Origin: Candidatus Nomurabacteria bacterium RIFCSPLOWO2_01_FULL_39_18
GTDB lineage: Bacteria > Patescibacteriota > Minisyncoccia > Phycocordibacterales > UBA9973
Assembly: GCA_001787005.1 (NCBI GenBank)
Contig: MFUV01000004.1
Coordinates: 911 to 64,910, forward strand
Direction of reading: 5' to 3'
Length of the DNA: 64,000 bases
Shown here one piece after another: positions 6,393 through 63,160 of the stretch (position 1 is its first letter; every line of letters begins with the position of its first letter). Under the pieces are notes generated by a model, which was not told the DNA's origin, did not search any database, and saw only the letters and a program-made list of their open reading frames with translations. A program made the translations under genes and the position numbers.

Positions 6393-6398
6393 AAAACC

Positions 6399-6425: not shown

Positions 6426-6498
6426 ATACATTGTTTACGATAAGTGCGAGAATTGCCTCACACACTCACAAGGGTAGTATAGCATACTTGCCAAAGAA

Positions 6499-6528
6499 TT
6501 GCAAGGAAAGTAGAAATGTGCTATAATG
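6499..6528 (+). promoter_or_regulatory. Sigma70-like promoter for the RNase P RNA
   Basis: TTGCAA at 6499-6504, an 18-nt spacer, then TATAAT at 6523-6528. An apparent divergent TTGCAA-17-TGcTATACT promoter overlaps it on the minus strand, facing glnA. Confidence 0.45.
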
Positions 6529-6530
6529 GC

Positions 6531-6860
6531 GGGGTAGGTGTTGGATAGCTACTCTATAATGTAAGTTGTAGAGAGGAAAGTCCGAACACAGTTTACCCCG
6601 TATTTATGCGGGGCGAAAAATGAGTAGTGGGTAACGCCCGCATGTAGTGATGCATAGTTGCGAACAGTGACGAACCGATTTAGTTCGGGTGAAACGGCTA
6701 AATACTTACTTCTGTGCAAGATCGTGTCCAGCCCCACTTTTAATAAAGTGGGGCTGGGAGAATCGCTTGAGCCCGAGAGTAATCGAGGGCCTAGACAAAT
6801 TGCTATCGTCCCCGACCTTGGTCGAGGACCACAGAATTCGGCTTATAGACACCTACAACA
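6531..6860 (+). ncRNA. rnpB: RNase P RNA, bacterial type
   Basis: The P4 strands are present: AGAGGAAAGUCCGAACAC at 6572-6589 and ACAGAAUUCGGCUUAUAG at 6831-6848. P1 pairs gtaggtgt (6534-6541) with acacctac (6849-6856). A promoter lies upstream and a terminator downstream. Confidence 0.85.
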
Positions 6861-6871
6861 AAAATGAGAGT

Positions 6872-6897
6872 CCCCCGCCCAAAGCGGGGGATTTTCT
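6872..6897 (+). terminator. Intrinsic terminator after rnpB
   Basis: Hairpin cccccgcccaaagcggggg followed by attttcttt. Confidence 0.7.
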
Positions 6898-6940
6898 TTA
6901 GAAAAATATTGTGTTATTATGCCTTTATAATATTATTTTT

Positions 6941-7960
6941 ATGACGAATCTTCCTACATTAGAATTCATTCTGAAGAATTATAAAAACTTCAACTCGCGA
7001 GCAACTCGTGATGCCTTAATTGCCTATTGGAAGCACATCGAGGGCGGCGGCAAGATGTTCTGGAGTGTAGCAGGAGCCATGTCTTCCGCCCAGCTTGGCA
7101 TCACGCTCGCTCCTGCGATCAGGAGTGGGCTTATTCATGGCATGTCCGTTACTGGCGCAAATCTAGAAGAATCCCTCTTCCGCCTCGTAGCGCATGATAG
7201 CTATAAAGATTTCCCAGACTACCGCTACTTCACCAAAGAGTATGATACGAAAATTTTAGAAGACGGCATGCGCCGGGTCACAGACACTAGCATCCCAGAG
7301 GATGAAGCATTTCGAGCGGTTGAAAAGCAGTTAGTGCCTGCATGGGTGGGAGCAACAAAGGAGGGTACTCGAAAATTCTGGCATGAATATTTCTACGAAC
7401 TAATCAAGGCAATAGATAAAAGCAAACATGAGGGTAGTACGGAAGAATGCTGGCTCCTAGCCGCTGCAGAGGGCAATATCCCGATGGTTGTGCCGGGCTA
7501 CGAAGATTCTACGTTTGGAAACATTTTTGCTTCACATGTGAAGCTGGGCGATGCAAGCGCCAATATAGCTAAAAGCGGCATAGAGTACATGGGCGCATTC
7601 TATGATCAATACCAAAAGCTCTCGGAAGGCACTGGCGTCGGCTTTTTCCAAATTGGAGGAGGTATTGCGGGGGACTTCCCTATCTGCGTCGTCCCATCGA
7701 TCAAATATGACATGAAGCTCCCTGTGAAGCCTTGGGCTTATTTCTGCCAAATTTCAGATTCAACGACTTCCTACGGTTCATATTCCGGCGCCACCCCGAA
7801 CGAAAAAATAACTTGGGACAAATTGACCAAGGATACTCCGATGTTCGTGATAGAGTCGGATGCCACCATCGTTGCCCCCCTCATTCTGACTGCCCTTCTA
7901 GAATGCAAAGCAGACCCTGCAGAGGCAAATAAATTAATAGATAAATACTTGGCAGAATAA
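6941..7960 (+). CDS. Deoxyhypusine synthase-like protein (possible homospermidine synthase)
   Basis: Weak motif similarity to the deoxyhypusine synthase family (segment AGAMSSAQLG...GMSVTGANLEESLF). Lies immediately upstream of an agmatinase gene. Confidence 0.55.
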   Translation: MTNLPTLEFILKNYKNFNSRATRDALIAYWKHIEGGGKMFWSVAGAMSSAQLGITLAPAIRSGLIHGMSVTGANLEESLFRLVAHDSYKDFPDYRYFTKEYDTKILEDGMRRVTDTSIPEDEAFRAVEKQLVPAWVGATKEGTRKFWHEYFYELIKAIDKSKHEGSTEECWLLAAAEGNIPMVVPGYEDSTFGNIFASHVKLGDASANIAKSGIEYMGAFYDQYQKLSEGTGVGFFQIGGGIAGDFPICVVPSIKYDMKLPVKPWAYFCQISDSTTSYGSYSGATPNEKITWDKLTKDTPMFVIESDATIVAPLILTALLECKADPAEANKLIDKYLAE

Positions 7961-7964
7961 AATC

Positions 7965-8873
7965 ATGAAAATTAAGACAATGAAACATGGCTTTTTGGGC
8001 ACAGACCAAGGGGTTAGGTTCGATGTTGACTATGTAAAAGCGAAAGCGGTGATTATCCCTTTTGGCATGGAAGCACACGTTTCTTATGGAGCGGGAACAA
8101 AAAATGGCCCTAAGGCAATCCTTAAAGCCAGCCATGAGCTAAACGAAAATGACGAGCAAACATTGCAAGCTGTGTATAAATGCGGCCTTTCCACTTTGAA
8201 AGAACCGAAAATCCCAAAAGATTCTGCCAAAGCCATTAAGCTTTTAAAAGAAACAACTAAAAAAGTTTTAGAAGATAAAAAGTTCCCGGTTATCTTGGGA
8301 GGAGAACATGCTCTCCTCTCTGGTTCACTTGGTGCTGTCTGCGAGCACTTCCATGATGTAAGTATTTTGCATTTTGATGCTCACGCTGATCTCCGGAAAA
8401 AATATCGCGGATCAATACACAGCCATGCTTCCGCCTTAAGAAGGGCTATGGAAAACCTACCAATTAAACGCCTGGTTTCCGTAGGCATAAGAACTGTTAG
8501 TGAAGTAGATGATGAACTCGGCTTTATTTTACGAGAGAAAAAAAGGCTTAAAATTTTTTGGGGTTGGGAAAAACTTTTAGCAAAAAAAATAGTGGTTGCT
8601 ATACCGACAAAAAATGTCTATATCACTTTTGATGTAGATGCTTTTGACCTATCGATTATGCCTTCTACTGGCACGCCCGAACCTGGTGGACTTACGTGGT
8701 GGCAAACAGTAGAAATACTAAAGCTAGCTTTTAGAGAAAAAAATGTGGTCGGCTTTGATGTGGTAGAACACTCGCCTATCAAAAACTTACCTGGACCAGA
8801 CTTTCTGGTAGCGCGCTTGATTTATAAGATGATTGGTTATAAATTTTTTAGCACTAAAACCAAGGCGAAATAA
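7965..8873 (+). CDS. speB: Agmatinase / arginase-family ureohydrolase
   Basis: Arginase-family motifs GGEHAL, HFDAHADL and TFDVDAFD. Confidence 0.85.
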   Translation: MKIKTMKHGFLGTDQGVRFDVDYVKAKAVIIPFGMEAHVSYGAGTKNGPKAILKASHELNENDEQTLQAVYKCGLSTLKEPKIPKDSAKAIKLLKETTKKVLEDKKFPVILGGEHALLSGSLGAVCEHFHDVSILHFDAHADLRKKYRGSIHSHASALRRAMENLPIKRLVSVGIRTVSEVDDELGFILREKKRLKIFWGWEKLLAKKIVVAIPTKNVYITFDVDAFDLSIMPSTGTPEPGGLTWWQTVEILKLAFREKNVVGFDVVEHSPIKNLPGPDFLVARLIYKMIGYKFFSTKTKAK

Positions 8874-8885
8874 AGCTCTAACCGA

Positions 8886-9416
8886 TTAGTAACCAAATTC
8901 TACCTTATCTCCTACTTTTAAATTATATTTATCGGAAAATCCAGCCACCACTTCAAGAACATACTTAGCATCCTCGTCGGGTTCATAGGTTTCTAGAAAT
9001 AAATCCGGGTGGGCGTTTTGCTTTATGTAGACTACTCGCATATCCTCGTTAATCCAGATTATGTCTATCGGGAAATACATGTTTTTCATCCAGAAAAGAT
9101 ATTTATCGGGACGATCGAAGACGAAGAGCATGCCTGTGTCCTCTGCCATACTTCTCCTACCGGAGAGCCCCTCTCCACGAGTAGCCTCGGTGAGGGCAAG
9201 ATCCACTTTAATATTCTGCCCGGCTACCTCTATGCTCTCAATCTGTGAAAATCTATACTCCGTCGAACCACGGCTAATAAATATAAAAGCGACAAGCAAA
9301 AAAACTAAAACGGTAAGAGCCGAAAAATTTTCTTTCTTCTCTGTTTTATTTATGGTCTCCATTTGTCCAACCAAAGAGTCGTCCAATTGCTTCTGCTGTT
9401 TCTCGTTTGCGTGCAA
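8886..9416 (-). CDS. DUF192 (COG1430) family protein with an N-terminal membrane anchor
   Basis: Segments GMLFVFDRP...FWMKNMYFPIDIIWI match the DUF192 pattern. Confidence 0.55.
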   Translation of the reverse strand: MHANEKQQKQLDDSLVGQMETINKTEKKENFSALTVLVFLLVAFIFISRGSTEYRFSQIESIEVAGQNIKVDLALTEATRGEGLSGRRSMAEDTGMLFVFDRPDKYLFWMKNMYFPIDIIWINEDMRVVYIKQNAHPDLFLETYEPDEDAKYVLEVVAGFSDKYNLKVGDKVEFGY

Positions 9417-10749
9417 CTTTTATTGTTCCATCTTGGGCGATTAACTTAGCTGGAGAAGATAGTAAACAATGGTGGGAGGCTAGAGCATCTTGATAAGCAC
9501 CAGAGTCAAAGATCGCCAGATACTGTGGCTCCCCTTCCTTTAGCTTAGGCATTAGTACATAACTTCCCCCAGAAGTGTATTTATCATCAGAATCACAAGA
9601 ACTTCCAGCAAGCCAAACACTTTTGAGAGTAGTCGCATTGGCATTATTAACTGGTACTATGTGCCACTTCTGGTGGATAGCCCATGTGTCTAGAAGGTCG
9701 TTCATAAAACTTCCGTCAATTACATACCAGGATTTTGCATTTGCCTTTGGAATAGGTTTTTCGGCAATTACACTGTATATAGTGACCTGAGCTGGAGCTA
9801 CGATGTATCTACCCCATTCGACAGCCAAATTTGGATGGCGAATCCTGGCTTTATCGCTCATTTTTTTAAGAAGCTTAACTATCTGCTCAGAAACTTTTTT
9901 TGCTCCATAAAACGGCTTTTTTTCATAAGGTACTCCAAAACCGCCACCAACATCAAGCGTGTCCAAGTTCGGATGATTTTTAACCAATTTTACATACAAA
10001 CCCATGGCTTCCTCAATCGGCTGCATGACACTCTTGGCGTTGTTGATTTGTGAGCCAATGTGGTAATGCAAAAGTTTTAGGTTTTTCATTTTTGGCAAAT
10101 CAAGTAGTTCTTTCGAGGAAAATCCGAAACGATCCACTTTCTTGTCCCAGTGGGTGTCTGCTTTGGTATCTAAATTGACCCTTATCCCCACCTCGCCTTT
10201 ATATTTAGCTAAACGTTCCAGCTCGTGTTCATCTTCAATGATTGGCATTATAGATAAATCCTTGAGTCGTAATTCCTCAATCAGTTTTATATATGCTTCT
10301 GTTTTGGGACCATTACAAAGAACGCGAATTTTGGAATGGAATTTTTCTCCCTCCCAAAGCTTTTTCACAATCCAGAGTTCGTTGACCGAACCAACCTCCA
10401 TATGCGCTCCTTCAGAGATTAAAGGCATCACAAATTCTTTGTTTTGATTCACTTTCAATGGATAGTGATAGAAGAATTTACCCCGATATCCCTGAATCTT
10501 CATGTAAGCTTGAAAATAATCGTGCAGATCTTCTAAACGTTCCTCGAGAATAAATGGAAAAACTATTTCCGTGGGTGAACCGTACTTTTTTACAATATCA
10601 TTAAGATTATAAATATAGTTTCCTTCTCGGATGGTCAGCTCGCCGTCCTTGGTAATGTCAAAATACTGAGTGTTCCACTCTTCCATTCCTAGCTTCCAAA
10701 ATTTCTTCCAATTCTTGCCCGGTTTTTTTGGTTTTTTTTTCTTTGGCAT
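9346..10749 (-). CDS. PLP-dependent fold-III decarboxylase, probably arginine decarboxylase
   Basis: Orn/DAP/Arg decarboxylase signatures YPLKVNQNKEFVMPLISEG and LDTLDVGGGFGV. Lys-rich N-terminus. The neighbouring agmatinase suggests an Arg to agmatine step. Confidence 0.7.
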   Translation of the reverse strand: MPKKKKPKKPGKNWKKFWKLGMEEWNTQYFDITKDGELTIREGNYIYNLNDIVKKYGSPTEIVFPFILEERLEDLHDYFQAYMKIQGYRGKFFYHYPLKVNQNKEFVMPLISEGAHMEVGSVNELWIVKKLWEGEKFHSKIRVLCNGPKTEAYIKLIEELRLKDLSIMPIIEDEHELERLAKYKGEVGIRVNLDTKADTHWDKKVDRFGFSSKELLDLPKMKNLKLLHYHIGSQINNAKSVMQPIEEAMGLYVKLVKNHPNLDTLDVGGGFGVPYEKKPFYGAKKVSEQIVKLLKKMSDKARIRHPNLAVEWGRYIVAPAQVTIYSVIAEKPIPKANAKSWYVIDGSFMNDLLDTWAIHQKWHIVPVNNANATTLKSVWLAGSSCDSDDKYTSGGSYVLMPKLKEGEPQYLAIFDSGAYQDALASHHCLLSSPAKLIAQDGTIKVARKRETAEAIGRLFGWTNGDHK

Positions 10750-10978
10750 TTGAGTATTAATGTAACAAAAAGAAGTATAGCAAGTGTTAATGAAATGTAA
10801 ATACTGTGGATAAGTAGAGGGGTGTGGTTGGTAGTGTTCCGAACCCCGCCCTCTTCCTCTTTAAAGAAACATCCCTGAAATGTTAGACACTGAGTGTTCA
10901 ACATTTCTATTTCCTTAAAGCCACGGCGACTCTATAGACATTCAAAGAACTATTTCTTAAAAGAACAAATTCATTTCT

Positions 10979-11269
10979 CTAAACCCATGCCACTTTTTTA
11001 AACACTTGCACTGACTGTATCTTTCTAATTTGTAAAACAATTCTGAAAACTTTATTCGACTTTCTGGCGACATTTCGTTCCGACCAGACTTTCATCTCCA
11101 CGAAGTTTGCCTTTTCTCTATTTTTTACTTTCACAAAATCCTTTTCTATGCGTTTCATTAGTCTAGTTAGTCTTCCCATGAATTCTTTATTTTTGAGTGC
11201 ATTTTTATTATTGCCAACTTTTACAATAACCATCTCACCCAGATATTTTTTTAAGTTATTTGCTTTCAT
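10979..11269 (-). CDS. Hypothetical basic protein
   Basis: 96-aa ORF directly after the argH stop. It is not the missing argH C-terminal domain. Confidence 0.25.
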   Translation of the reverse strand: MKANNLKKYLGEMVIVKVGNNKNALKNKEFMGRLTRLMKRIEKDFVKVKNREKANFVEMKVWSERNVARKSNKVFRIVLQIRKIQSVQVFKKVAWV

Positions 11270-11290
11270 TTTTATGTCTTTAGTAGTTGT

Positions 11291-12469
11291 TTACCCATAT
11301 TTTTTTGAGACTTCTCGATATGCTTCTCGGAAAGACATTCCTTTTTCAACTAAGTTATAAACTTCAGCCGTAGCGTAGAGTTCTGAAGTTAATCCATTTT
11401 CACATTTCTTTTGATTAACTTTTAGATTCTTAAAGATTTCAGCCAACATGTATAAACTTTCTGAAACAATTTCAAAGGTTTTAAATACTGGCTCTTTAAG
11501 TAACTGCAAATCTCTGTGATAGCCTGATATTAAATTACTAGTAATACCCTTTACCCGTAACTCGCAAGAGACTACTGTATGATATTTTGCTCTCAGTAAT
11601 TCCAACACATCAGGATTTTTCTTTTGTGGCATTATCGAACTGCCTGTGCGAAATTCCTTGGGTAATTCAAAGTAACCAAATTCCGACATGCTGAACATAA
11701 TTAAGTCCGATGATATTTTATTGGCATCAAACATAATTTGAGCAAGGGCATGCAAAATCGCCGATTCAAACTTACCACGACTGTTTTGCGCATAAATTGG
11801 ATTTTGTTGAACTTTTTTGAAACCTAAAATTTTTGCGGTAAAGTTTCTTTCAATTCTTATAGGCAAGCCGTATCCAGCCGCAGTTCCGAGTGGAGACTGA
11901 TCTATTAAGTCCTCTGCGTAAGCCAAAGATTTTAAATTATCTTGCATGGAATCTATAAAACTTTCTGCCAACATTTTTATTGATGAAGGCATAGCTTTGC
12001 GAGTATGCGTGTAGCCAGGAAATTTAATTTTTCCATAAAGCTTGGAAAAATTTCGCAAGCTACTAATAAATTTCTCACACAACTCATTACAAATCTTTAA
12101 GTTATCTTTGTAATATAATCTCAAAGCAACCAGAACTTGATCATTGCGAGAACGAGCAGTGTGAATTTTCTCTCCCAATATTCCCAACTTTTTAGTAAGA
12201 TAATTTTCTATGGCTGTATGACAGTCTTCTTGTTCGGGTAAGATTTTGAACTTACCTTTTGCGTCTAAACTAATAATTTCTTGTAAGGATTTAGATAGCT
12301 TTTTCACCTCTGTACTTTTGAGTAGTCCGATTTTCCCCAGCATTTGGGCATGAGCCGTGGAAGCCAAACAGTCATACTTGACCAGTTGTTGGTCAAGAAT
12401 ATAATCTTGTCCCACCGTAAATTTCTCTACATCTTTATTTAATTTGTAATTTTTTTGCCAGAGTTTCAT
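11291..12469 (-). CDS. argH: Argininosuccinate lyase, apparently lacking ~60 C-terminal residues
   Basis: Fumarate-lyase signature GSSIMPQKKNPD and an ArgH-like N-terminus. At 392 aa it is ~65 aa shorter than typical, ending shortly after FREAYREV. Its start overlaps the argG stop. Confidence 0.8.
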   Translation of the reverse strand: MKLWQKNYKLNKDVEKFTVGQDYILDQQLVKYDCLASTAHAQMLGKIGLLKSTEVKKLSKSLQEIISLDAKGKFKILPEQEDCHTAIENYLTKKLGILGEKIHTARSRNDQVLVALRLYYKDNLKICNELCEKFISSLRNFSKLYGKIKFPGYTHTRKAMPSSIKMLAESFIDSMQDNLKSLAYAEDLIDQSPLGTAAGYGLPIRIERNFTAKILGFKKVQQNPIYAQNSRGKFESAILHALAQIMFDANKISSDLIMFSMSEFGYFELPKEFRTGSSIMPQKKNPDVLELLRAKYHTVVSCELRVKGITSNLISGYHRDLQLLKEPVFKTFEIVSESLYMLAEIFKNLKVNQKKCENGLTSELYATAEVYNLVEKGMSFREAYREVSKKYG

Positions 12470-13734
12470 TTTTTATCTTTTTTATTTTTAACTGATAATT
12501 GATTTGCTAGTTTCATCTGTAAAGAGTAAATTTCAATAAATCCTGCACTTGCATTTACATTGAGTCCATACCCCTCTGTGTTATTAAATGAAGCATGGTC
12601 TAAGGCGTACGGAGACTGTACTGTGATGACAGTGGTGTTACCTTTGAATAATCTAATTTGTACTTTTCCTGTGACTTTTTGATTAATGAAATCATTAAAA
12701 TGATTTATTGATTGCATCGCTGGGTCATACCACTGAGCTCCATAGCATAAGTAGCCCCACTTTATGTCAGAAATTTCCTTGAGTTCATTCTGCACTCTTG
12801 TGCAAACATATTTTTCTAAATTCTTATGCGCTTCAATAATTACGTGTGCCGCAGGATGTTCATAAACACCACGATTTTTCAAACCAACAATTCTATCTTC
12901 AAGTAAGTAAACAGTTCCAACTCCGTGCTTCCCCGCTAATTTATTTAGTTTAACTATCAGCTTTGCTAATGACATTTTTGTGCCGTTTAAAGCCACAGGT
13001 AGACCTTGGTTAAAATCTAGAGTTACTATTCCTGGTTCGTCTGGTGCATTTTTGGGTAAAGTATAAGTGGTCAAAAACTTTTCTTCCGGCACTATTTGGG
13101 TTGGATTTGTAATTTCCCCGCCTTCCCAAGTAATGCCCCACATGTTGTCATCGTCGCTGTAAGGAAAATCTAGAGAAGCAGGAATAGGAATATTATTTTT
13201 TTGAGCGTATTTTATTTCTGCATTTCTGTCCATGTTCCACTCTCGAACTGGCGCAAGAATTTTTATTTTTGGTTCCAAAGCTACAACATAACCTTCAATT
13301 CTAACTTGGTCATTACCCTTACCCGTGCAACCGTGAGCAATACAATCAGCGTTTTCTTTTTTAGCTATTTCTACCGCCTTCTTTGCTAATATGGCCCTAC
13401 CGATTGGTGTAGAAAGATGATAGTTACCTTGATAACAAGCATTGGCTTTAATTCCATAAGAAATATATTCTTTAGCAAATTCTTCTCTCACATCTAAAGC
13501 GATAGCTTTTATTGCTCCGAACTTTAAAGCTTTTTGTCTAATTGCTTATAAGTCATCGTGTTGCTGACCTAAGTTTAGAGTTAAAGCAATAACTTGAACT
13601 TTATATTGATCCTGAATCCACTTAAGCATCACCGAAGTATCTAAACCTCCGGAATACAAAAGTAAAACTTTTTTTATCTCCCCTTTTTGCGCTTCATAAG
13701 AAGCGACTTTTATGTAAGATGTTTTTTTATTCAT
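12466..13734 (-). pseudogene. argG: Argininosuccinate synthase interrupted by a single in-frame TAA
   Basis: The 62-aa ORF 13546..13734 ([14 protein letters not shown]...LGQQHDDL) and the 341-aa ORF 12466..13491 are in the same frame. Reading through gives ...QQHDDL*AIRQKALKFGAIKAIALDVREEF..., which is contiguous ArgG sequence. The stop is the rc of tta at 13546-13548. Confidence 0.75.
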
Positions 13735-38719: not shown

Positions 38720-39325
38720 TCAAGATAAGTGAAAATGTTTTTTAATTTTTTCATCTCTTAAAATACTTTCCACAGACAAAACTTCTACATACTTACCTAC
38801 CCCAAAAAAATCAGCAATAAAAATTATTTCATCTTCGCATGGATATGGATAAATCCACGCAGATTTCTGAAACTGGAAAAAATTTAACTTTTTAAGATGG
38901 TATCGAAGAGCTTCTCTTCCTTTAGTAAATCTCATAGGAATATCAAACATAACCAACCTCCATTTTCCATCCCATTTTTTCTGTGTTTTAATTTCAATAA
39001 GCTCAATATCAAAAGCTCTTAATCGGGTTTTACCTTTTGTGGTAATTTTTACTATTGTTTTTCCATCCCTATCAACAATATACTCTATAAGCTTTTGCCG
39101 TTTAACACTATTAATTGCACTTCTGATTTGACTTTCGGAATATTTTCTAGAACCTTTAAACATTTTGAAAACCTGTACGACGTTACCTATAGCTCCTGCC
39201 CCCACCACAAGCACAGGTAGTGAAGCAAGCGCAAGTACACAAAGTGCAACTGTGGCAATCTTGGCCTCTTTGGTGTCGGAACTTAAAAAATCTTTCAACC
39301 TTTGCCCATATCCCCCTTTTTCCAT
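38720..39325 (-). CDS. Winged-HTH + PaaX_C-like protein, paralogue P1 (N-terminal TM)
   Basis: Segment KKWDGKWRLVMFDIPMRFTKGREALRYHLKKLNFFQFQKSAWIYPYP, preceded by a winged-helix-like segment. Paralogues at 55669..56247 and 62672..63160. Confidence 0.45.
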   Translation of the reverse strand: MEKGGYGQRLKDFLSSDTKEAKIATVALCVLALASLPVLVVGAGAIGNVVQVFKMFKGSRKYSESQIRSAINSVKRQKLIEYIVDRDGKTIVKITTKGKTRLRAFDIELIEIKTQKKWDGKWRLVMFDIPMRFTKGREALRYHLKKLNFFQFQKSAWIYPYPCEDEIIFIADFFGVGKYVEVLSVESILRDEKIKKHFHLS

Positions 39326-46061: not shown

Positions 46062-46743
46062 CTTTTTCTAATTTTTCTTCTCGTTCAAATTTTTCTCTAT
46101 ATGATATCTTTAGTGAAACTAAACGAAGGAACTCTCTTGCTGCTTCCGGATCTTCGTCAAACCTTTCCATCACAGCACTCACGGATCGATCAACAACCGA
46201 TTCATCAAAATTTTCTAACTGGTCCGGTCTGGTCCGGCTAACTTCCTTTCTGGCATCTTTAGTTTCATAATCAGTTCCTTCCTTCTTTACAATCTCCCAT
46301 CTAACACTATTTACAATACCTTTTACTCTTTTCGGTTCTTTCTCGTATCTGTTATTCATTTTTTGAGCCTCTCTACGGTCTTCTTCTTCCCTAATTTCTT
46401 CTTTTTTTTCTGGAGAAACCCCCTTCTTTATGCCAAAACGCATCGCATAATTTGTGCCAACCACAAGAGCCCCTGCTCCAACATAAGCCAGAGATTGTTC
46501 GAAATTTCCTTTTACTGCACTTTCGGCAGACTTTAACAATAAAAGAAAATTTGCCCAGCCGCTAGCTTTCATAATTGCTGTTCCGCCGTACATAAGAGCT
46601 TTGTCCTTAACTCCTTTAAGCCACTTTATATGTCTAGATCTTATCTGCTCGGCAGTTTCAACACTCGCTGTTTGTTCTTTTTTGATTATCGGTTGTGGAG
46701 ACCATTTTTCCATACAGCTTATAATACCCCCCCCCACAACCAT
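46054..46743 (-). CDS. Hypothetical charged protein, possible cargo
   Basis: 229-aa ORF with a Glu/Lys/Arg-rich C-terminal half. Confidence 0.3.
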   Translation of the reverse strand: MVVGGGIISCMEKWSPQPIIKKEQTASVETAEQIRSRHIKWLKGVKDKALMYGGTAIMKASGWANFLLLLKSAESAVKGNFEQSLAYVGAGALVVGTNYAMRFGIKKGVSPEKKEEIREEEDRREAQKMNNRYEKEPKRVKGIVNSVRWEIVKKEGTDYETKDARKEVSRTRPDQLENFDESVVDRSVSAVMERFDEDPEAAREFLRLVSLKISYREKFEREEKLEKVG

Positions 46744-46785
46744 GTCAATCCAAATGTGGATAACTCAACACCCCTCTGTTGTTTT

Positions 46786-46836
46786 TGCCTCTGTGCGACT
46801 ACGGAGGCGCGACTACGGAGGCGTTGCCTCTGTTTA
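46786..46836. repeat. REP-like hairpin R2, upstream of the RAYT gene
   Basis: Sequence ttgcctctgtgcgactacggaggcgcgactacggaggcgttgcctctgt. Confidence 0.55.
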
Positions 46837-46852
46837 TGGTTCGTGCTATATT

Positions 46853-47491
46853 ATGGACATGGCTTTAAGAAAACAATCTTTCGCTGTGGATGAATATTAT
46901 CATTTATATAATCGTGGTACTGAAAAAAGGAAAATTTTTTTAGAAAAAAGAGATTATGAACATTTTTTGTTTTTAATGTATGTCTGTAATACTACAAAAA
47001 GTATCGAATTGAGAAATATTGGCAAAACTTTTGATCGCGAAGAAACTATAATTGATATTGGTGCATATTGTTTAATGCCTAATCATTTTCATGTCCTTGT
47101 TCGTGAAAAAGTAAAAAATGGAATTTCTAAATATATGCTTAAACTAATGACTGGATATTCGATGTATTTTAATAAAAAATACAAACGAACTGGGAAATTA
47201 TATGAGGGTGTATTTAAATCAATCCATGCGAATAAGGACACATATCTAAAATATCTTTATTCGTATATTCATCTGAATCCAGCAAAATTGATAGATAAAA
47301 ATTGGAAGGAAAATAAACACAGAAACATCAAAAATTTACTAAAATATGTTTTTTCTTATAAATACTCAAGTCTAAAAGAATATATAAGCTTAAAATTTAA
47401 AATCGTAAATCCAATACCATTTCCAACTTATTTCAAAAGACCAAATGGTCATAAAGAAGAACTTTTTGAGTGGCTTAGTTTAGGTGAGTGA
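46853..47491 (+). CDS. IS200-like Y1 (HUH) transposase, REP-associated tyrosine transposase type
   Basis: Motif YHLYNRGTEKRKIF, the HUH motif NHFHVLV and a C-terminal YSYIHLNP. Flanked on both sides by REP-like hairpins. Confidence 0.75.
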   Translation: MDMALRKQSFAVDEYYHLYNRGTEKRKIFLEKRDYEHFLFLMYVCNTTKSIELRNIGKTFDREETIIDIGAYCLMPNHFHVLVREKVKNGISKYMLKLMTGYSMYFNKKYKRTGKLYEGVFKSIHANKDTYLKYLYSYIHLNPAKLIDKNWKENKHRNIKNLLKYVFSYKYSSLKEYISLKFKIVNPIPFPTYFKRPNGHKEELFEWLSLGE

Positions 47492-48665: not shown

Positions 48666-49181
48666 TTATAACAAATTAGGGAAAAATTCTTTAACACAAA
48701 AACGAAAAGCGTCTCCGAACAATTCTGGAGTTTCTTTCAAGCCATTTCTCAATTCTTCTTCGGTGAAATATTTATGGCTTTCATCTTCATGGCTCAATAC
48801 TGGCTCTTGGTCTGAGAAAATTTTATACATTACGAAAAAATGATTTTCCTGCCGTCCTATTATGAAACGATTGAATATTTTTCTGCCCACAAATTCAAAC
48901 TTATAATCATCCTCAAAACCAACCTCTTCCTTGGTTTCTCTTCTAAGCGCGTCTACCTCTGCTTCTCCCGCACTGACATGCCCACCAATCGGAGATTGGT
49001 GCTGTCCTGCATCCTGTCTCCCCCTTACTGGTTTTAATAATAGCCATCTTTCTTTAGAATCAATCACTTGGCTAATAACCGTTTTATGCAAAAGCCCTTT
49101 TTCATGCGCTTCTTTTTTTGAAACAATTTCAATAAAGTTCCCATTTTCATCGACGATATCCACTAATTCATCTTGTGACAT
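48666..49181 (-). CDS. NUDIX hydrolase
   Basis: Nudix box GGHVSAGEAEVDALRRETKEEVG. Confidence 0.8.
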   Translation of the reverse strand: MSQDELVDIVDENGNFIEIVSKKEAHEKGLLHKTVISQVIDSKERWLLLKPVRGRQDAGQHQSPIGGHVSAGEAEVDALRRETKEEVGFEDDYKFEFVGRKIFNRFIIGRQENHFFVMYKIFSDQEPVLSHEDESHKYFTEEELRNGLKETPELFGDAFRFCVKEFFPNLL

Positions 49182-49259: not shown

Positions 49260-51395
49260 TTACTTCGCAATCTGGGTTGCTTCTTCAAATTTAATGGAGA
49301 GGAGTTTGGAGGCGCCGTTACTGCCCACTGTTACGCCATAGAGTATGTCGGCGCGGGACATCGTTTCGCGATTGTGGGTAACGACGATAAGCTGGGAATG
49401 TTTTGAAAGTTTCTCTAGCATGTCTCCGTATTTGCGTGAATTCGCCTCATCGAGTGCAGCGTCTGTCTCGTCGAGCACTAAGAAGGGCGGCGGGTTAACC
49501 TGTGACATGGCAAAGAGTAGCGCGATGGATGTGAGCGACCTCTCTCCGCCCGAGAGCGCATGAAGTTCTTTGACCTTTTTGTGCGGAAGTGAAACATTAA
49601 TTTCTATCCCTTGCTCGGGGGCGGTCTCTTCTTCATTTTCTATTTCCACTTCCTCTTCGTCTAAATCAGATGGAGCGTTTCTCTTCCTCTTATTTTCCAC
49701 AACAATCTTCAGGGACCCGTGTCCCCCGCCAAACATTAGGGTAAAAAATTCTTGAAACTCCACATTTATTTTCTTGATGCCTTCTTGGAATTCCATGTCA
49801 ATCTTTTCTTTTAAATCCAATATAAGCTTCTGTAGCAAATCAATGCTTTTAGTTAAATCCTCCATCTCTTTCGCCAAAAACCCGTCTCTCTCTGAAACTT
49901 CTTTAAATTCTTTCATAACTTCCGCTCCACTGCCGAGGCCTGCATCCTCTAGTTTTATTTTTAACCGTTCAATCTTTTTCCTCAATTCTTCCTGAACACT
50001 CTCTTCGCCCCCATTTTCTATCTTGTGATTTTTATATGACAAAATTTCTTCCCCCACAAGCGCAATGCCCTCTTTTATCTCTCGTTCAAAAGCTTCATTT
50101 CTGCTTCGTAAATTTCCTTCTTTAATGTTTATGAGTTCTAGCTGGGAAGTTAGTTCTTGGTGCTTAACTTTCCAAGTAAATTTCTCTCGTTCAAGATCAC
50201 GCAGAGTTTCCATTTCTTTATCAATCGCTTGTTTTAAGCTTTCTGCCGATTCTGCTCCCCTCACCTCTTCCACTTCTAGATTTTTCATCCCGGCGACAAC
50301 TTCCTGTTGTGAGTTTTTTAATTCTTCTAATTCCTTCTCTCCCTGTTGTCGCTTTTCTATTTGCTCCGGGTGCATCTCTTTGATTTCATTACCACAAAGC
50401 GGACATCTGCCAGAAAGTTTTACCTTATTTTCTTTTGATTCTAGCATCCCCTCTATTCGTCCGAGTTTTCTTTCCATTTCATTTTTGAGCGCGCGAATTT
50501 CGTTGATCTTTTTCTCAATAGCTCGAAGCTCTTCTATTTTTCGATTGCCTCCCCTAGAATTTTCATCTTCAGTGAGAGAAATTTTTTTGGCAACACTGGC
50601 AAGCTCGACAGAAATTTTATTTTTCTCTTTTGTTAAATTAGACTTTTCTTTTTCTAGGTAAACACTTTCTTTCTTCAAATATTCACGATAAAGCCCTGCG
50701 AGCTCTGCCTGCATTTCCTTGGCCTTTTCAAATTTCTCTACTTGTTTCTTAAGAAAATTAAGATGCGGAGCATTCTCTCGGCGAAGCATCGTCACCTCTT
50801 TCATATTTTCTTCTGTGCGTTCGAGCTTCCTTTCAGATTCTTTTATCTTGTATTGATAAATTTTGAGCCCCAATGCGTCTTCCACCATCTCGCGTCTTTC
50901 TTTCATATTTGCATTCAAAATTCTGTCCGCCTCGCCCTGCGAAATGATGTGGTGCCCAGAAGAGCCAATGTTGACTGAAGCCAGGAGATTGTGAATATCT
51001 TTCAGCCTGACTTCTCCCCCATTTAAACTATATTTATTGAGTCCATCTGGAAAAACCTCGCGAGAAATGCTGATGGTGTCGTAATTCAAGTTTACATTTT
51101 CTCCTTCACTATTTGAAAGTTTGAAAACTTTGTCAGAATTATTGAAATAAATTTTAACTATTGCATGGTTTCCCTTGGGCAAACTCTTTGATCCCTTGAA
51201 AATTAAATCCGAGCCAGTTTTGCCCCGCATCGACTTCATCGACTGCTCACCTAGGACATAGCGTATTGCCTCTACTACATTTGATTTCCCGGAGCCATTT
51301 GGCCCCACAATAGAAACTATGGGATTATTGAACTCTAAAAGACTTTTCTGGTGGAAAGATTTAAAGCCGTTTATTTCCAGGGTTTTCAGTCGCAT
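49260..51395 (-). CDS. smc: Miniaturised SMC-family ATPase with a Rad50-type CxxC hook in place of a hinge
   Basis: N-terminal Walker A GPNGSGKSN with an SMC_N-like sequence. C-terminal LSGGERSL and PFLVLDETDAALD. A central RCPLCGNEI lies within predicted coiled coil. Only 711 aa. Positioned directly after rnc, matching the common rnc-smc synteny. Confidence 0.75.
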   Translation of the reverse strand: MRLKTLEINGFKSFHQKSLLEFNNPIVSIVGPNGSGKSNVVEAIRYVLGEQSMKSMRGKTGSDLIFKGSKSLPKGNHAIVKIYFNNSDKVFKLSNSEGENVNLNYDTISISREVFPDGLNKYSLNGGEVRLKDIHNLLASVNIGSSGHHIISQGEADRILNANMKERREMVEDALGLKIYQYKIKESERKLERTEENMKEVTMLRRENAPHLNFLKKQVEKFEKAKEMQAELAGLYREYLKKESVYLEKEKSNLTKEKNKISVELASVAKKISLTEDENSRGGNRKIEELRAIEKKINEIRALKNEMERKLGRIEGMLESKENKVKLSGRCPLCGNEIKEMHPEQIEKRQQGEKELEELKNSQQEVVAGMKNLEVEEVRGAESAESLKQAIDKEMETLRDLEREKFTWKVKHQELTSQLELINIKEGNLRSRNEAFEREIKEGIALVGEEILSYKNHKIENGGEESVQEELRKKIERLKIKLEDAGLGSGAEVMKEFKEVSERDGFLAKEMEDLTKSIDLLQKLILDLKEKIDMEFQEGIKKINVEFQEFFTLMFGGGHGSLKIVVENKRKRNAPSDLDEEEVEIENEEETAPEQGIEINVSLPHKKVKELHALSGGERSLTSIALLFAMSQVNPPPFLVLDETDAALDEANSRKYGDMLEKLSKHSQLIVVTHNRETMSRADILYGVTVGSNGASKLLSIKFEEATQIAK

Positions 51396-51410: not shown

Positions 51411-52106
51411 CTAATCCATCCAATTTTTCACCTTTAATGCAGATTCTGCGGCCTTTTGTTCCGCCTCCTGCTTTGATTTGCCCTTGCCTTCAGCAATCAA
51501 ATTGGGTCCGAAATAAATGCCGACGGTAAAATGCTTATCATGGTCGGGTCCCGACTCGTTCAATACTTTATAGGCGGGCGTAACATTCACAAATTCTTGC
51601 GCCTTTTCTTGTACTAGAGACTTTGCATCACGCCAGAGCTTTTTATTCACTATTTCGGTCGTTTTGGGCAGAAGTGTTTGATGCACAAATTTATCTACTG
51701 CATCATAGCCCTGATCTAGATATAAAGCTCCGATGTATGCTTCATAAGTATTTGCTAAAATATATTGCCTCGCCTTGCCATTATCCTTTGCCTCACCTTT
51801 AGACAAAAGCAAATAATCATTCATCCCGATGTTCAGAGCTGTTTCAGAGATAATAACGGCATTAACGAGCGACGAACGCACTGCGGTTAATTCTCCCTCC
51901 GTATAACTCGGATATTTTTTATAAAGAAAATCTGTAACGATTAATTCGAGCACAGCATCACCCAAGAATTCTAGTCGTTCATTATGGGAAAGAGAAGTTG
52001 CCGGATTTTCATTGATATAAGAACGATGCGTGAAAGCTTGCCGGAGCAATTCTTTATTTTTGAAAACTATTTTTGTCTTTTTCTCAAAATCTGAAAAATT
52101 AATCAT
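51411..52106 (-). CDS. rnc: Ribonuclease III
   Basis: Signature ERLEFLGDAVLELIV and a C-terminal dsRBD. Confidence 0.9.
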   Translation of the reverse strand: MINFSDFEKKTKIVFKNKELLRQAFTHRSYINENPATSLSHNERLEFLGDAVLELIVTDFLYKKYPSYTEGELTAVRSSLVNAVIISETALNIGMNDYLLLSKGEAKDNGKARQYILANTYEAYIGALYLDQGYDAVDKFVHQTLLPKTTEIVNKKLWRDAKSLVQEKAQEFVNVTPAYKVLNESGPDHDKHFTVGIYFGPNLIAEGKGKSKQEAEQKAAESALKVKNWMD

Positions 52107-52150: not shown

Positions 52151-53080
52151 TCATTTTTTACTTAAAATTTCAACCGCTTTGCTAATCAATGGAATGATAT
52201 CGTTGTAAATACGAAGGTCTGGCAATTCCCGCAAATGAAACCATTTGGCTCCGTCTAAGCCCCCGGACTTTTCAAGCATCAACTCTCTGTAATCGCTCTT
52301 AGCTAAAAAATACGCGACTTTCTTCAGACTTTTCCCTTTTTCTGGGTGTGTCGCCACATATTCATTCTCTCCGAGCTTTTTTTCTATTCTGATATCAAGT
52401 CCAATTTCTTCTTTTATTTTTCTCTTAGTGCCCTCTTCTATATTCTCATTAACGTCAACTTTCCCTTTTGAAAGAGTCCAATAACCGAAAACATCATGCA
52501 CCAATGCAAATAAAATATCTTCTCCCTCTATGGTGTATACCAAAGCGCCACCTAAGTTCTCAACTGGCAATTTAGTAATATCGAGCGGTTCTCTTTTTGC
52601 CACAGAATCTTTTCTTTTACTCACTTGTTCCTTGCCAGGCTCGCCAATTTCCTTGTAGACTGCGCCCAGCACGCCATTGATAAACTTGCCAGAGTTCTCT
52701 CCGCCGAAAGTTTTCGCCAATTCTATGGCTTCGTTGATTGCCACTTTTGGAGGCACTTGCGCTCTATCGCTGAAAAGAAGCTCCGTTAAGCCGATCCTCA
52801 AAATATTCCTGTCCACAACAGATATTTTGTCTATCGGCCAGTCTGGCGCAGCCTTTTCTATTATTTCATCTATGACTTTATGCTTCGCTAATATTGCCTC
52901 TATCAGCGAGGACACAAAGTTATCATCTTCCAGCCCAGGAGCAAATTCTTTTAAGTTTCTATTCAATATTTCCTGAATCTTGTCATTCTTAGAATTTTCA
53001 TCTTTCTCTGAAGCAGGCAGGAAATCCCATTCAAAAAGAGTCTGAAGTACTATTGATCTTGAAAGGTGCCTATTTGCCAT
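52151..53080 (-). CDS. NusB-like N-terminal domain fused to a NUDIX hydrolase domain
   Basis: N-terminus MANRHLSRSIVLQTLFEWDF is NusB-like. The C-terminal Nudix box is SKGKVDVNENIEEGTKRKIKEEIGLDI. Confidence 0.65.
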   Translation of the reverse strand: MANRHLSRSIVLQTLFEWDFLPASEKDENSKNDKIQEILNRNLKEFAPGLEDDNFVSSLIEAILAKHKVIDEIIEKAAPDWPIDKISVVDRNILRIGLTELLFSDRAQVPPKVAINEAIELAKTFGGENSGKFINGVLGAVYKEIGEPGKEQVSKRKDSVAKREPLDITKLPVENLGGALVYTIEGEDILFALVHDVFGYWTLSKGKVDVNENIEEGTKRKIKEEIGLDIRIEKKLGENEYVATHPEKGKSLKKVAYFLAKSDYRELMLEKSGGLDGAKWFHLRELPDLRIYNDIIPLISKAVEILSKK

Positions 53081-55668: not shown

Positions 55669-56247
55669 TCAAAAATTTTCCATCTTTTTTAATGTACCCG
55701 TTTTCCCTATTTCAAAGATTTCAACAAATTCTATTATTTTCAAAAGTTCTAAATCTAAGATAAATTCGTGAGGAATTTTAACTTTTCCAATCCAAACGCT
55801 TTTGTGAACCATTCCAAACTGAAGATTTTTAACAACCTCCCTAAGCCAATTGCGCTTTCGGCGAAGTTTTTCCGGAATATCAAAACTTATGATAACTAAA
55901 CCTCTCTGATTTTCTGTTTGATAATGCCGGTCAGGCAGGTTGTTTTTTAAATCCAAAATTTTCTTCCTACCCGCGTTAGAAATCGTAAGTTTATTCTTCA
56001 CTTCCTTTATAAGCCCATCATGTTTGAGTTTAGATATAAATACTTGTAGTCGTCTTCTTCTTTTTCTTAAATCCTCTTCATTATATTTTCTGAATTCAGA
56101 AACTCGCTGGCACTTTCGGTATTCATAATCAATTTTATTCATACTCGCACCATAACCACTGGCCAATACAGCCTCAAAGAAGTCGATCTGACTGATAACA
56201 CCATCTTTAAGTATCTCAAGCGCTTTTAGTAAAATTTTTCCTCTCAT
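55669..56247 (-). CDS. Winged-HTH + PaaX_C-like protein, paralogue P2
   Basis: Segment RGLVIISFDIPEKLRRKRNWLREVVKNLQFGMVHKSVWIG. Confidence 0.45.
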   Translation of the reverse strand: MRGKILLKALEILKDGVISQIDFFEAVLASGYGASMNKIDYEYRKCQRVSEFRKYNEEDLRKRRRRLQVFISKLKHDGLIKEVKNKLTISNAGRKKILDLKNNLPDRHYQTENQRGLVIISFDIPEKLRRKRNWLREVVKNLQFGMVHKSVWIGKVKIPHEFILDLELLKIIEFVEIFEIGKTGTLKKMENF

Positions 56248-62671: not shown

Positions 62672-63160
62672 TTATTTTTTGAAATTATAACCCCTCGCAA
62701 GTTTAAAGGTTTTTAAATCTTCTCTCAAGCCGATACTTTTAATGTAATCCAAAAATTCTTTCGGTAGGGGTGAAGGACCCACCCAAACACTTTTCTGTAT
62801 CATGGCATAATTAAATTTCTTGAGATGCCAGCGCAACCATTCCCTTTCCGCTTTCTTTGGTTCTGGAACATCAAACATAACTATCAGGTTCTTTGGCGCA
62901 TCTTTGTCGAATTGAAAATCAAATTGTTGCAGAGAGTCAATTTTTCTTTTAATATAATTTATACCTTTCGGGGTAATGTACAGTCCGTCGCAATCCCCCA
63001 CAAGTTTTTCTTTTATGAGATGCGACATAGTTCCCCGCAATGAGCTCTGCGAATAATTTTTAAATCTTGGTAAACCCAAAAGGTTTACCCGACTTCCTTT
63101 ATAGTTGAGCGACACGCTACTAAGCTCTTTTAGAATGTCGTATATAATACTCATGCACAA
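62672..63160 (-). CDS. Winged-HTH + PaaX_C-like protein, paralogue P3
   Basis: Segment NLIVMFDVPEPKKAEREWLRWHLKKFNYAMIQKSVWVGPSPLP. Confidence 0.45.
   Translation of the reverse strand: MCMSIIYDILKELSSVSLNYKGSRVNLLGLPRFKNYSQSSLRGTMSHLIKEKLVGDCDGLYITPKGINYIKRKIDSLQQFDFQFDKDAPKNLIVMFDVPEPKKAEREWLRWHLKKFNYAMIQKSVWVGPSPLPKEFLDYIKSIGLREDLKTFKLARGYNFKK

What the first reader, a model, noticed from the sequence alone, without database searches (positions are those of the whole stretch)
49260..51395. smc orthologue (rnc-smc synteny) shrunk to 711 aa with a Rad50-type CxxC hook in place of a hinge
Head domains are clearly SMC-type (GPNGSGKSN, LSGGERSL, PFLVLDETDAALD) and the gene follows rnc as in many bacteria. 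However the protein is ~450 aa shorter than canonical SMC. The middle of the coiled coil contains RCPLCGNEI, a Rad50/SbcC-like zinc-hook motif, and no recognisable hinge domain. A zinc-hook SMC would be an unusual architecture for the chromosomal condensin.
Basis: partly seen in the sequence, partly recalled or inferred. Interest (0 to 1): 0.6.

Follow-up and report, generated by a model that had tools for sequence, protein, structure and literature searches.

The report
Short hinge-less SMC with zinc hook
This ultra-small (CPR) bacterium's only recognisable chromosome-organising SMC protein has half-length arms and, instead of the usual hinge, a Rad50-style two-cysteine hook, a design previously only engineered in the lab, though zinc binding, dimerisation and the partner proteins are untested here.

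Summary
ORF 49260-51395 (-) encodes a 711-aa protein with bacterial-Smc heads (TIGR02168 510 bits; Rad50 models at most 74). It has no hinge. Its only two cysteines form CPLC (331-334) in the 15-residue loop at the tip of a confidently modelled antiparallel coiled coil.

It is not a truncation. All 120 close relatives are 706-729 aa with CPxC at the same position, and nusB-rnc-smc synteny holds in about 72 of 81 related loci.

The apex model's best PDB matches are the two chains of 1L8D, the P. furiosus Rad50 zinc hook. Sequence profiles agree in register but only marginally (E about 0.03).

Context changes the picture. Short hinge-less Smc is the norm in this Patescibacteria group (at least 540 species genomes), and most carry a cysteine-free helical cap instead of the hook. 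Within one 21-species clade, 17 have the hook and 4 the cap. One hook/cap sister pair is confirmed by the flanking genes.

Arms of about 160-180 aa sit near the minor 163-aa natural mode reported by Bürmann et al. 2017, whose engineered Smc(zinc-hook) chimera is functional.

Zinc binding, dimerisation and ScpAB partners are untested. I found no prior report of a natural hook-bearing bacterial Smc. I rate it a new variant of a known kind, interest about 0.65.

The parts
49260..51395 (-). Complete gene for the 711-aa short hinge-less Smc (exact match to hypothetical protein A3A95_01940, Candidatus Nomurabacteria bacterium RIFCSPLOWO2_01_FULL_39_18).
50889..51395 (-). N-terminal half of the ATPase head (about residues 1-169), including Walker A GPNGSGKSN at 51279-51305 and the Q-loop Q153.
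   Evidence: The boundary was mapped by alignment to the B. subtilis Smc head.
50415..50888 (-). N-terminal strand of the coiled-coil arm (about residues 170-327, about 158 aa). It has a break at 275-284 and the invariant LGRIEG motif at 311-316.
50370..50414 (-). Apex loop SGRCPLCGNEIKEMH (residues 328-342) with the putative zinc-hook motif CPLC (residues 331-334, nt 50394-50405). It occupies the place of the SMC hinge.
49830..50369 (-). C-terminal strand of the coiled-coil arm (about residues 343-522, about 180 aa), with interruptions at about 447-489 that may correspond to a joint-like irregularity.
49260..49829 (-). C-terminal half of the ATPase head (about residues 523-711, plus stop codon). 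It holds the signature motif LSGGERSL and Walker B/D-loop FLVLDETDAALD (49449-49556), the H-loop H674, and a variable acidic insertion at about 568-594.
51411..52106 (-). rnc (RNase III), immediately upstream in the same operon. This is the conserved synteny partner.
52151..53080 (-). nusB-Nudix fusion gene, the first gene of the conserved nusB-rnc-smc arrangement.

Best explanation
This is the Smc (condensin) orthologue of a Nomurabacteria/Paceibacteria-type CPR bacterium, in a minimised form. Shown: it has canonical Smc ATPase head halves, arms of about 158 aa (N strand) and 180 aa (C strand), and no hinge. From helix length that is roughly 22 nm, about half the canonical 47-49 nm. At the tip a 15-residue loop carries an invariant C-P-x-C-G. 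Inferred: each chain supplies only two cysteine ligands, so two chains together coordinate one Zn2+ tetrahedrally, as in Rad50/SbcC. That would give the constitutive tip-to-tip homodimer that the hinge normally provides. ATP-driven engagement and disengagement of the heads (Walker A, Q-loop, signature, Walker B and H-loop are all intact) would then drive the usual SMC cycle on the small (under 1 Mb) chromosome, probably with a kleisin bound at the conserved neck and cap. The hook is one of two interchangeable tip modules in this lineage.
For: Head orthology: TIGR02168 scores 509.9 bits versus Rad50 at most 74, RecN 49 and ASRP 48. The B. subtilis Smc head matches at 3.8e-76, with the neck sequence conserved. 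Synteny: nusB-rnc-smc is conserved on an 813-kb contig and in 71-72 of 81 Patescibacteria loci. Not an artefact: 120 clusters are 706-729 aa, and at least 540 species-representative genomes have relatives. No hinge. Anatomy: AF2 arms have pLDDT 80-90. The apex-only model has pLDDT 93 and pTM 0.74, with helix 286-327, loop 328-342 and helix 343-389. Hook: CPxC is invariant and these are the only cysteines. The top two of 350,542 PDB chains are 1L8D_A/B, the Rad50 Zn hook (TM 0.74-0.77, prob 1.0), with 5GOX at rank 4 and 6ZFF at ranks 17 and 25. The hook profile hits 1L8D at E=0.027 and 6ZFF at 0.067, in register. Pfam Rad50_zn_hook matches in register at E=0.013, and at 0.034 in the independent hook lineage P0169. 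Functional plausibility: an engineered B. subtilis Smc with the P. furiosus Rad50 hook in place of the hinge supports normal growth (PMC5344682), and Rad50 hook and MukB hinge are interchangeable in yeast (PMC6969161). Arm length of about 160-180 aa is near the minor natural mode at 163 aa and about two ~91-aa periods below the 341-344 aa canonical length.
Against: All hook similarity statistics are marginal (E 0.01-0.07, below Pfam's gathering score). CPxCG is also a generic zinc-knuckle motif, and the best profile hit was a LysW zinc ribbon. Close relatives manage without any cysteine at the tip, so the cysteines are not the only way to build this tip. No ScpA or ScpB was found in the window or within +/-10 kb in 82 related loci, and the rest of the genome could not be searched. 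The full-length AF2 model has poor head confidence.
Confidence: 0.7

Rival explanations
1. It is the Smc orthologue, but the CPxC is not an intermolecular zinc hook. It would instead be a structural turn, a redox-sensitive disulfide or an intramolecular metal site, with dimerisation through coiled-coil or tip packing as presumably happens in the cysteine-free relatives.
For: 143 of 150 representatives and 65 of 84 SMC ORF hits in the loci have no CxxC yet keep the same overall architecture. Sister species differ in tip type. The hook similarity statistics are marginal, and CPxCG is a generic zinc-knuckle motif.
Against: C, P, C and G are strictly invariant in an otherwise variable region. There are only two Cys per chain and no conserved His or other Cys nearby, so a complete metal site needs two chains. 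The hook forms lack the roughly 40-aa helical cap, which implies the CPxC loop replaces its role. The best PDB structural match is the Rad50 hook.
Confidence: 0.13
2. It functions like Rad50/SbcC or RecN, as a DNA-end tethering or repair ATPase without a kleisin, rather than as a chromosome-folding condensin. The short arms and hook would reflect convergence on a repair architecture.
For: The architecture (about 700 aa, a coiled coil of about 20 nm, a CxxC tip) resembles archaeal Rad50. No ScpA/ScpB was found nearby. Fold hits include Rad50 and Lamassu LmuB tips.
Against: The heads are far closer to Smc than to Rad50 or RecN. No Mre11/SbcD-like gene is among the 30 window ORFs scanned or among the conserved neighbours. 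The conserved nusB-rnc-smc operon context matches the rnc-smc linkage known in Bacillus. scpAB are not normally linked to smc in bacteria (my own knowledge), so their absence nearby says little.
Confidence: 0.08
3. It is an SMC-like component of an anti-phage or anti-plasmid defence system (Lamassu LmuB, MADS mad3, Wadjet JetC).
For: PADLOC hits mad3 at 199 bits and LmuB at 111 bits. A Lamassu LmuB structure ranks third in the fold search.
Against: These scores are well below the 510 bits to Smc. No defence partner genes are adjacent. The gene sits in a housekeeping operon conserved across hundreds of species genomes, unlike mobile defence islands.
Confidence: 0.03
4. It is a truncated or misassembled fragment of a canonical smc (pseudogene, frameshift or MAG artefact).
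For: The protein is about 475 aa shorter than B. subtilis Smc and scores below the TIGR02168 cut-off (509.9 < 567.35).
Against: It is an intact ORF with both head halves. The same length and tip occur in 120 clusters from many independent samples and assemblers and in 17 species genomes. The arms pair in a confident hairpin.
Confidence: 0.01

Closest known systems
Bacterial Smc of Smc-ScpAB (e.g. B. subtilis Smc; NCBIfam TIGR02168)
   Same: The head sequence, all ATPase motifs and the neck region match. The N-arm is collinear with the first ~315 profile positions. There is rnc-smc linkage and a single copy per locus.
   Different: It has no hinge domain. Arms are about 160-180 aa instead of about 340. 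It falls below the equivalog cut-off. The tip is a 15-residue CPxC loop. ScpAB is not located.
Engineered Smc(Zh) chimera (B. subtilis Smc with the P. furiosus Rad50 zinc hook; Bürmann et al. 2017, PMC5344682)
   Same: The design is the same: Smc heads and arms joined at the tip by a CxxC hook. The chimera supports normal growth, which shows the design can work.
   Different: This one is natural rather than engineered, and its arms are about half as long. The shortest functional engineered arms were about 253-267 aa. Function here is untested.
Rad50/SbcC zinc hook (PDB 1L8D, 6ZFF, 5GOX; Pfam PF04423)
   Same: CPxCG lies at the tip of an antiparallel coiled coil. It is the best structural match in the PDB and the sequence alignment is in register (GKCPVCGREL versus GRCPLCGNEI).
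   Different: The heads are Smc-type, not Rad50-type. There is no Mre11/SbcD neighbour. The Pfam score is below threshold (15.8 < 24.3). Common origin versus convergence is unresolved.
Archaeal SMC-related proteins ASRP / ClsN (coalescin) / Sph1-2 (PMC9389158)
   Same: These are short SMC-superfamily proteins with a zinc-hook motif at the coiled-coil tip and no hinge, implicated in chromosome organisation.
   Different: They are archaea-specific and form a separate family. NF045487 scores only 47.7 bits against a cut-off of 300. They coexist with, or replace, canonical Smc as paralogue-like proteins, whereas this one is the Smc orthologue itself.
'Hinge-less' SMC clade from ocean metagenomes (Sussfeld et al. 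2025, PMC12153180)
   Same: It is a bacterial SMC-clade protein lacking the hinge, and is not found together with a regular SMC.
   Different: That clade is Actinobacteria-affiliated and marine, and the authors state that the CXXC motif is absent. The protein here is from CPR and has CxxC.
Cysteine-free short Smc of other Patescibacteria (e.g. P0121, L014, L019)
   Same: They belong to the same family, with the same heads, arms, LGRIEG motif and synteny, and reach 68-71% identity.
   Different: Their tip is a roughly 45-60 aa two-helix cap without cysteines instead of the 15-residue CPxC loop.

Membership tests
Bacterial Smc (TIGR02168 SMC_prok_B) | Split ABC ATPase head with Walker A, Q-loop, signature LSGG, Walker B, D-loop and H-loop of Smc type | tested here: met
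   510 bits to TIGR02168, 3.8e-76 to the B. subtilis Smc head, and all motifs invariant.
Bacterial Smc (TIGR02168 SMC_prok_B) | Central hinge dimerisation domain (Pfam PF06470) | tested here: not met
   No hit at E<=0.1, and none at E<=1 in 9 relatives. Only 15 residues lie between the arm helices.
Bacterial Smc (TIGR02168 SMC_prok_B) | Long antiparallel coiled-coil arm (about 340 aa, about 47-49 nm) | tested here: not met
   The arms are an antiparallel coiled coil but only about 158/180 aa. That is near the minor 163-aa natural mode.
Bacterial Smc (TIGR02168 SMC_prok_B) | Score above the curated equivalog cut-off | tested here: not met
   509.9 bits against a cut-off of 567.35. The shortfall is explained by the missing hinge and distal arms.
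Bacterial Smc (TIGR02168 SMC_prok_B) | Kleisin/kite partners ScpA and ScpB in the genome | not testable with these tools
   None among the 30 window ORFs scanned, and none within +/-10 kb in 82 loci.
Bacterial Smc (TIGR02168 SMC_prok_B) | Conserved chromosomal context (rnc-smc linkage), single copy | tested here: met
   rnc is immediately upstream in 72 of 81 loci, with one SMC hit per locus.
Rad50/SbcC | Rad50-type ATPase head | tested here: not met
   Rad50/SbcC NCBIfam models score 36-74 bits against cut-offs of 478-1087.
Rad50/SbcC | CxxC zinc hook at the coiled-coil apex | tested here: inconclusive
   The motif, its position and its fold fit: 1L8D is the top PDB match, and profile E-values are 0.027 and 0.013. 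However, the Pfam score of 15.8 bits is below the 24.3 gathering score, and zinc binding is untested.
Rad50/SbcC | Mre11/SbcD nuclease partner, usually adjacent | tested here: not met
   There is no such gene among the window ORFs scanned or among the conserved neighbours.
Archaeal ASRP/ClsN | Match to NF045487 above cut-off; archaeal host | tested here: not met
   47.7 bits against a cut-off of 300. All relatives are from Patescibacteria.
Hinge-less marine SMC clade (Sussfeld 2025) | Hinge absent AND CXXC absent; Actinobacteria-affiliated | tested here: not met
   The hinge is absent, but CXXC is present and invariant. The taxonomy is CPR. The paper states that CXXC is absent from its clade.
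Lamassu LmuB / MADS mad3 defence ATPases | Best match to the defence-system model, plus partner genes in the locus | tested here: not met
   mad3 scores 199 bits and LmuB 111 bits, against 510 bits to Smc. The neighbours are housekeeping genes.

The most novel reading that the evidence does not exclude
The dimerisation module at the tip of a bona fide chromosomal Smc is an evolutionarily swappable cassette. In one narrow CPR clade, sister species carry either a Rad50-like zinc hook or a cysteine-free two-helix cap between conserved flanks (LGRIEGM... / ...EL.ELKNSQ). A whole major bacterial lineage runs its chromosome with hinge-less Smc whose arms are two super-helical periods shorter than canonical. 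If so, none of the proposed hinge-specific functions (DNA binding, a DNA gate) is needed for a natural condensin, and the arm-length periodicity found by mutagenesis in B. subtilis also holds in nature for a hook-tipped Smc.
Probability: 0.45. Interest if true: 0.78.

Novelty: new variant of a known kind. Interest (0 to 1): 0.65.

Why it matters
The hinge is treated as a defining, near-universal part of SMC proteins and has been proposed to bind DNA or act as an entry gate. Bürmann et al. showed by engineering that a Rad50 hook can replace it in B. subtilis. This gene suggests evolution has made the same substitution in a natural Smc orthologue, and on arms only half as long. Related species swap the hook for a different small cap, which gives a natural experiment on what the tip must do: dimerise, and perhaps nothing more. 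These roughly 710-aa proteins would be the smallest natural Smc-type motors with a chemically simple, metal-dependent, mutable dimer interface. That makes them attractive for structural and single-molecule work on loop extrusion, and for testing the arm-length periodicity rule. The case also shows that annotation pipelines miss or downgrade these proteins (labelled "hypothetical protein" or "AAA family ATPase") because they fall below the Smc equivalog cut-off.

Tried and rejected
(1) Truncation or assembly artefact was rejected.
(2) A cryptic hinge was rejected. Pfam gives no hit at E<=0.1 here or at E<=1 in 9 relatives. The profile of the cysteine-free apex hits only designed helical bundles in the PDB.
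(3) Rad50/SbcC, RecN, ASRP and MukB membership was rejected on head scores.
(4) A defence-system ATPase was rejected (plus gene context).
(7) ScpA/ScpB were sought three ways. Pfam scans of 30 window ORFs found none. jackhmmer and phmmer with Pfam-validated B. subtilis seeds (recalled from memory, validated) against 4564 ORFs of 82 CPR loci plus the window gave nothing better than E=1. Literature searches found nothing. This only shows they are not linked to smc.
(8) A conserved novel partner next to smc was sought by clustering neighbours. None was found; only nusB, rnc and convergent housekeeping genes recur.
(9) Monophyly of the hook forms was rejected (0/200 bootstraps). However, two of the three hook/cap sister pairs seen on the SMC tree were not reproduced by Rnc+NusB (L014+L013 2/200, L020+L005 0/200). 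Only L019+L011 is solid.
(10) The full-length AF2 model had poor heads (pLDDT below 50) because the alignment was shallow, so it was used for arm secondary structure only.
Full report
OBSERVATION. Direct translation confirms three motifs. Walker A GPNGSGKSN is at 51279-51305. The signature LSGGERSL followed by Walker B/D-loop PFLVLDETDAALD is at 49449-49556. The sequence SGRCPLCGNEIKEMH is at 50370-50414. RNase III (rnc, 51411-52106) ends 15 bp upstream on the same strand, preceded by a nusB-Nudix fusion gene and rpmF. Pfam reports SMC_N spanning residues 3-696 (1.6e-55) and no SMC_hinge even at E<=0.1.

IS IT REAL OR A FRAGMENT? The protein is an exact match to a hypothetical protein of Candidatus Nomurabacteria bacterium RIFCSPLOWO2_01_FULL_39_18. 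The 120 best clusters in a 5.8-billion-protein collection are all 706-729 aa at 74-81% identity, and none carries a hinge annotation. An exhaustive HMMER search of 1.84 billion 50%-identity representatives returned 150 best hits that, fragments aside, are all about 660-780 aa. A scan of one genome per species found at least 540 genomes with relatives, and the 80 best loci are all Patescibacteria MAGs. The short length is therefore a lineage property, not a frameshift or an assembly gap.

WHAT FAMILY ARE THE HEADS? NCBIfam gives 509.9 bits to bacterial Smc (TIGR02168) in two stretches. The N-terminal stretch aligns residues 2-322 to profile positions 1-315. The score is just under the 567-bit equivalog cut-off because the middle of the model is missing. 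Rad50 models reach at most 74 bits, RecN 49, archaeal ASRP 48 and SbcC 36. Against the PDB the best matches are B. subtilis Smc head constructs (3.8e-76), with the neck region conserved. PADLOC defence models score much lower (mad3 199 bits, LmuB 111 bits), and the neighbours are housekeeping genes. The nusB-rnc-smc arrangement recurs on an 813-kb contig and in 71-72 of 81 related loci, with exactly one SMC gene per locus. I conclude this is the lineage's Smc orthologue.

ANATOMY. A full-length AF2 model has poorly modelled heads because the alignment was shallow, but confident arms (pLDDT 80-90). It shows helices 178-274 and 285-327, a loop at 328-342, then helices 343-447 and onward back to the head. 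A model of residues 285-390 alone is confident (pLDDT 93.3, pTM 0.74): helix 286-327, a 15-residue loop containing CPLC with a small beta-bridge, and helix 343-389. Mapping head boundaries through the B. subtilis alignment gives arm strands of about 158 aa (N) and about 180 aa (C). My estimate from helix rise is roughly 22 nm, against 47-49 nm for canonical Smc. Bürmann et al. 2017 report natural prokaryotic arm-length modes at 238, 341 and 515 aa, "possibly" minor ones at 163 and 423 aa, and a functional periodicity of about 91 aa. The arms here lie close to the 163-aa mode, about two periods shorter than canonical. This correspondence is suggestive, not proven.

THE HOOK. C331 and C334 are the only cysteines in the protein. 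CPxC is present at the same position in all 120 close relatives, and C331, P332, C334 and G335 are invariant in a region that is otherwise variable. No conserved His or further Cys lies nearby, so a four-ligand metal site requires two chains. That is the logic of the Rad50 hook.

Three comparisons point the same way, each with marginal statistics:
- Pfam Rad50_zn_hook matches the isolated peptide in register at E=0.013 and 15.8 bits, below the 24.3-bit gathering score. An independent hook-bearing lineage (P0169) matches at E=0.034.
- A profile of the hook region finds the P. furiosus Rad50 hook structures 1L8D and 6ZFF as the 2nd and 3rd best PDB sequences (E=0.027 and 0.067; GKCPVCGREL versus GRCPLCGNEI). 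The best hit was a generic zinc ribbon.
- Foldseek of the apex model against 350,542 PDB chains ranks 1L8D chains A and B first and second (TM 0.74-0.77 over about 102 columns, prob 1.0, E=0.036). Human Rad50 hook 5GOX is 4th and 6ZFF is 17th and 25th.

So "Rad50-type hook" is the best available description of the tip. Whether it shares ancestry with Rad50 hooks or is convergent is open.

AN UNEXPECTED CONTEXT. Most short Patescibacteria Smc proteins do not have the hook. Of the 150 representatives, 143 have no CxxC, 6 have it at the apex and 1 has it elsewhere. The cysteine-free forms are about 40 aa longer. Of 84 SMC ORF hits in the loci and the window, 65 lack the hook. In its place they have about 45-60 residues forming two amphipathic helices. 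That segment matches only designed helical bundles in the PDB, not a hinge, and these proteins also lack Pfam SMC_hinge. Both tip types are flanked by the same conserved sequences (LGRIEGM.E upstream, EL.ELKNSQ downstream). Hook motifs in other lineages differ (CIYCAQ, CRTCKQ, CRYCGQ, CPVCGQ, CAACGQ, CGYCGQ, CPYCGQ) and do not group together.

In a bootstrapped neighbour-joining analysis that excluded the apex, the window's protein falls in a well-supported clade of 21 species (198/200). Seventeen of these have the hook and four have the cap, and neither type is monophyletic (0/200). One pair, L019 (cap) and L011 (hook), are sisters at 194/200 on the Smc heads and arms and at 200/200 on the adjacent Rnc+NusB proteins. 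The other two pairs suggested by the Smc tree were not reproduced by the flanking genes. At least one recent switch between tip modules is therefore well supported, and more are likely. These are distance trees, and MAG chimerism or recombination could contribute.

WHAT IS KNOWN.
- Bürmann et al. 2017 replaced the B. subtilis hinge with the P. furiosus Rad50 hook and obtained normal growth. They concluded that the fold of the dimerisation domain is irrelevant for chromosome segregation. They do not mention natural examples.
- Tatebe et al. 2020 showed the reciprocal swap in yeast Rad50.
- Archaeal ClsN/ASRP proteins are hook-bearing SMC relatives but form a distinct archaeal family.
- Sussfeld et al. 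2025 described a marine, Actinobacteria-affiliated "hinge-less" SMC clade and state that CXXC is absent from it.
- Six full-text searches found no report of a natural bacterial Smc with a zinc hook, or of the CPR short-Smc family. The library is incomplete, so prior description elsewhere cannot be excluded.

MECHANISM (shown versus inferred). Shown: Smc-type heads with all catalytic motifs, a half-length antiparallel arm, no hinge, an invariant CPxCG tip loop, the operon context, and wide conservation. Inferred: two chains share one Zn2+ through four cysteines to form a constitutive dimer, ATP-driven head engagement operates the usual SMC cycle, and a kleisin binds the conserved neck and cap.

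The kleisin is the main gap. No ScpA or ScpB was found among the 30 window ORFs scanned. None was found within +/-10 kb in 82 loci using Pfam-validated seeds, and no conserved candidate partner is linked. Since scpAB are usually unlinked to smc in bacteria (my own knowledge), this neither supports nor refutes their presence.

VERDICT. The feature is a new variant of a known kind: a natural, minimised Smc with a Rad50-like hook. It sits inside a large, apparently undescribed family of hinge-less short Smc proteins in which the tip module is interchangeable. Interest is 0.65. Confidence in the overall explanation is about 0.7: high for orthology and anatomy, moderate for zinc-mediated dimerisation, and lower for the exact cellular role.

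Noticed in passing
P0121, and loci L014, L018, L019, L020 and most of L023-L082 (apex region, about residues 320-400 of each SMC): Most short Patescibacteria Smc proteins carry a cysteine-free cap of about 45-60 aa (two amphipathic helices) instead of the hook. It has no detectable similarity to the SMC hinge or to any natural solved structure. How it dimerises is unknown.
   Followed up: partly
window 50445-50462 (residues 311-316, LGRIEG) and the same position in relatives: An invariant glycine-containing motif, L-G-R-I-E-G, sits in the N-arm helix about 15 residues before the tip. It is conserved in both hook and cap forms across the whole family, which is unusual for a coiled coil. It might be a flexible or recognition element, or a recombination flank.
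   Followed up: no
window 38720-39325 (-), 55669-56247 (-), 62672-63160 (-); also L001 3958-4530 and 19032-19619: There are three paralogous small proteins (162-201 aa) with a PaaX_M / Cas2-like domain scattered among core housekeeping genes. The same family recurs in the related 813-kb contig. No CRISPR context was seen, and the function is unknown.
   Followed up: no
window 52151-53080 (-): NusB is fused to a C-terminal Nudix hydrolase domain (309 aa). The fusion is conserved: L001 has both domains, and the family has a median length of 305 aa in 71 loci. A second stand-alone Nudix gene lies just downstream of smc (48666-49181).
   Followed up: partly
window 46601-47491 (+): This ORF has an IS200-like Y1 transposase domain (E=1.4e-7). 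It is the only plus-strand gene in the otherwise minus-strand stretch downstream of smc and lies next to maf. It may be a REP-associated or IS200-type element, and could explain why the genes downstream of smc differ from those in related loci.
   Followed up: no
window 4757-13491: A cluster of nitrogen, arginine and polyamine genes is notable for a CPR genome with sparse metabolism. It comprises glutamine synthetase, a deoxyhypusine-synthase-like protein, an arginase/agmatinase-family protein, DUF192, an Orn/Arg decarboxylase, a fumarate-lyase-family enzyme (possibly argininosuccinate lyase; only Pfam Lyase_1 was matched) and argininosuccinate synthase.
   Followed up: no
window 49614-49694 (about residues 568-594 of the SMC): The C-terminal head half has an acidic, length-variable insertion (…SDLDEEEVEIENEEETAPEQ…) relative to B. 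subtilis Smc, between the strand preceding it and the GIEINVSLP strand. It is poorly conserved within the family.
   Followed up: no
L021 10001-11497 and 11600-12271: In one related MAG the smc gene is split into two ORFs (498 and 223 aa). This is either a frameshift or sequencing error, or a real pseudogene.
   Followed up: no
L056 2654-4789: An independent hook-bearing short Smc (711 aa, CPYCGQ) is only 50% identical to the window's protein. All its nearest neighbours have the cysteine-free cap, which indicates a separate origin or transfer of the hook tip.
   Followed up: partly
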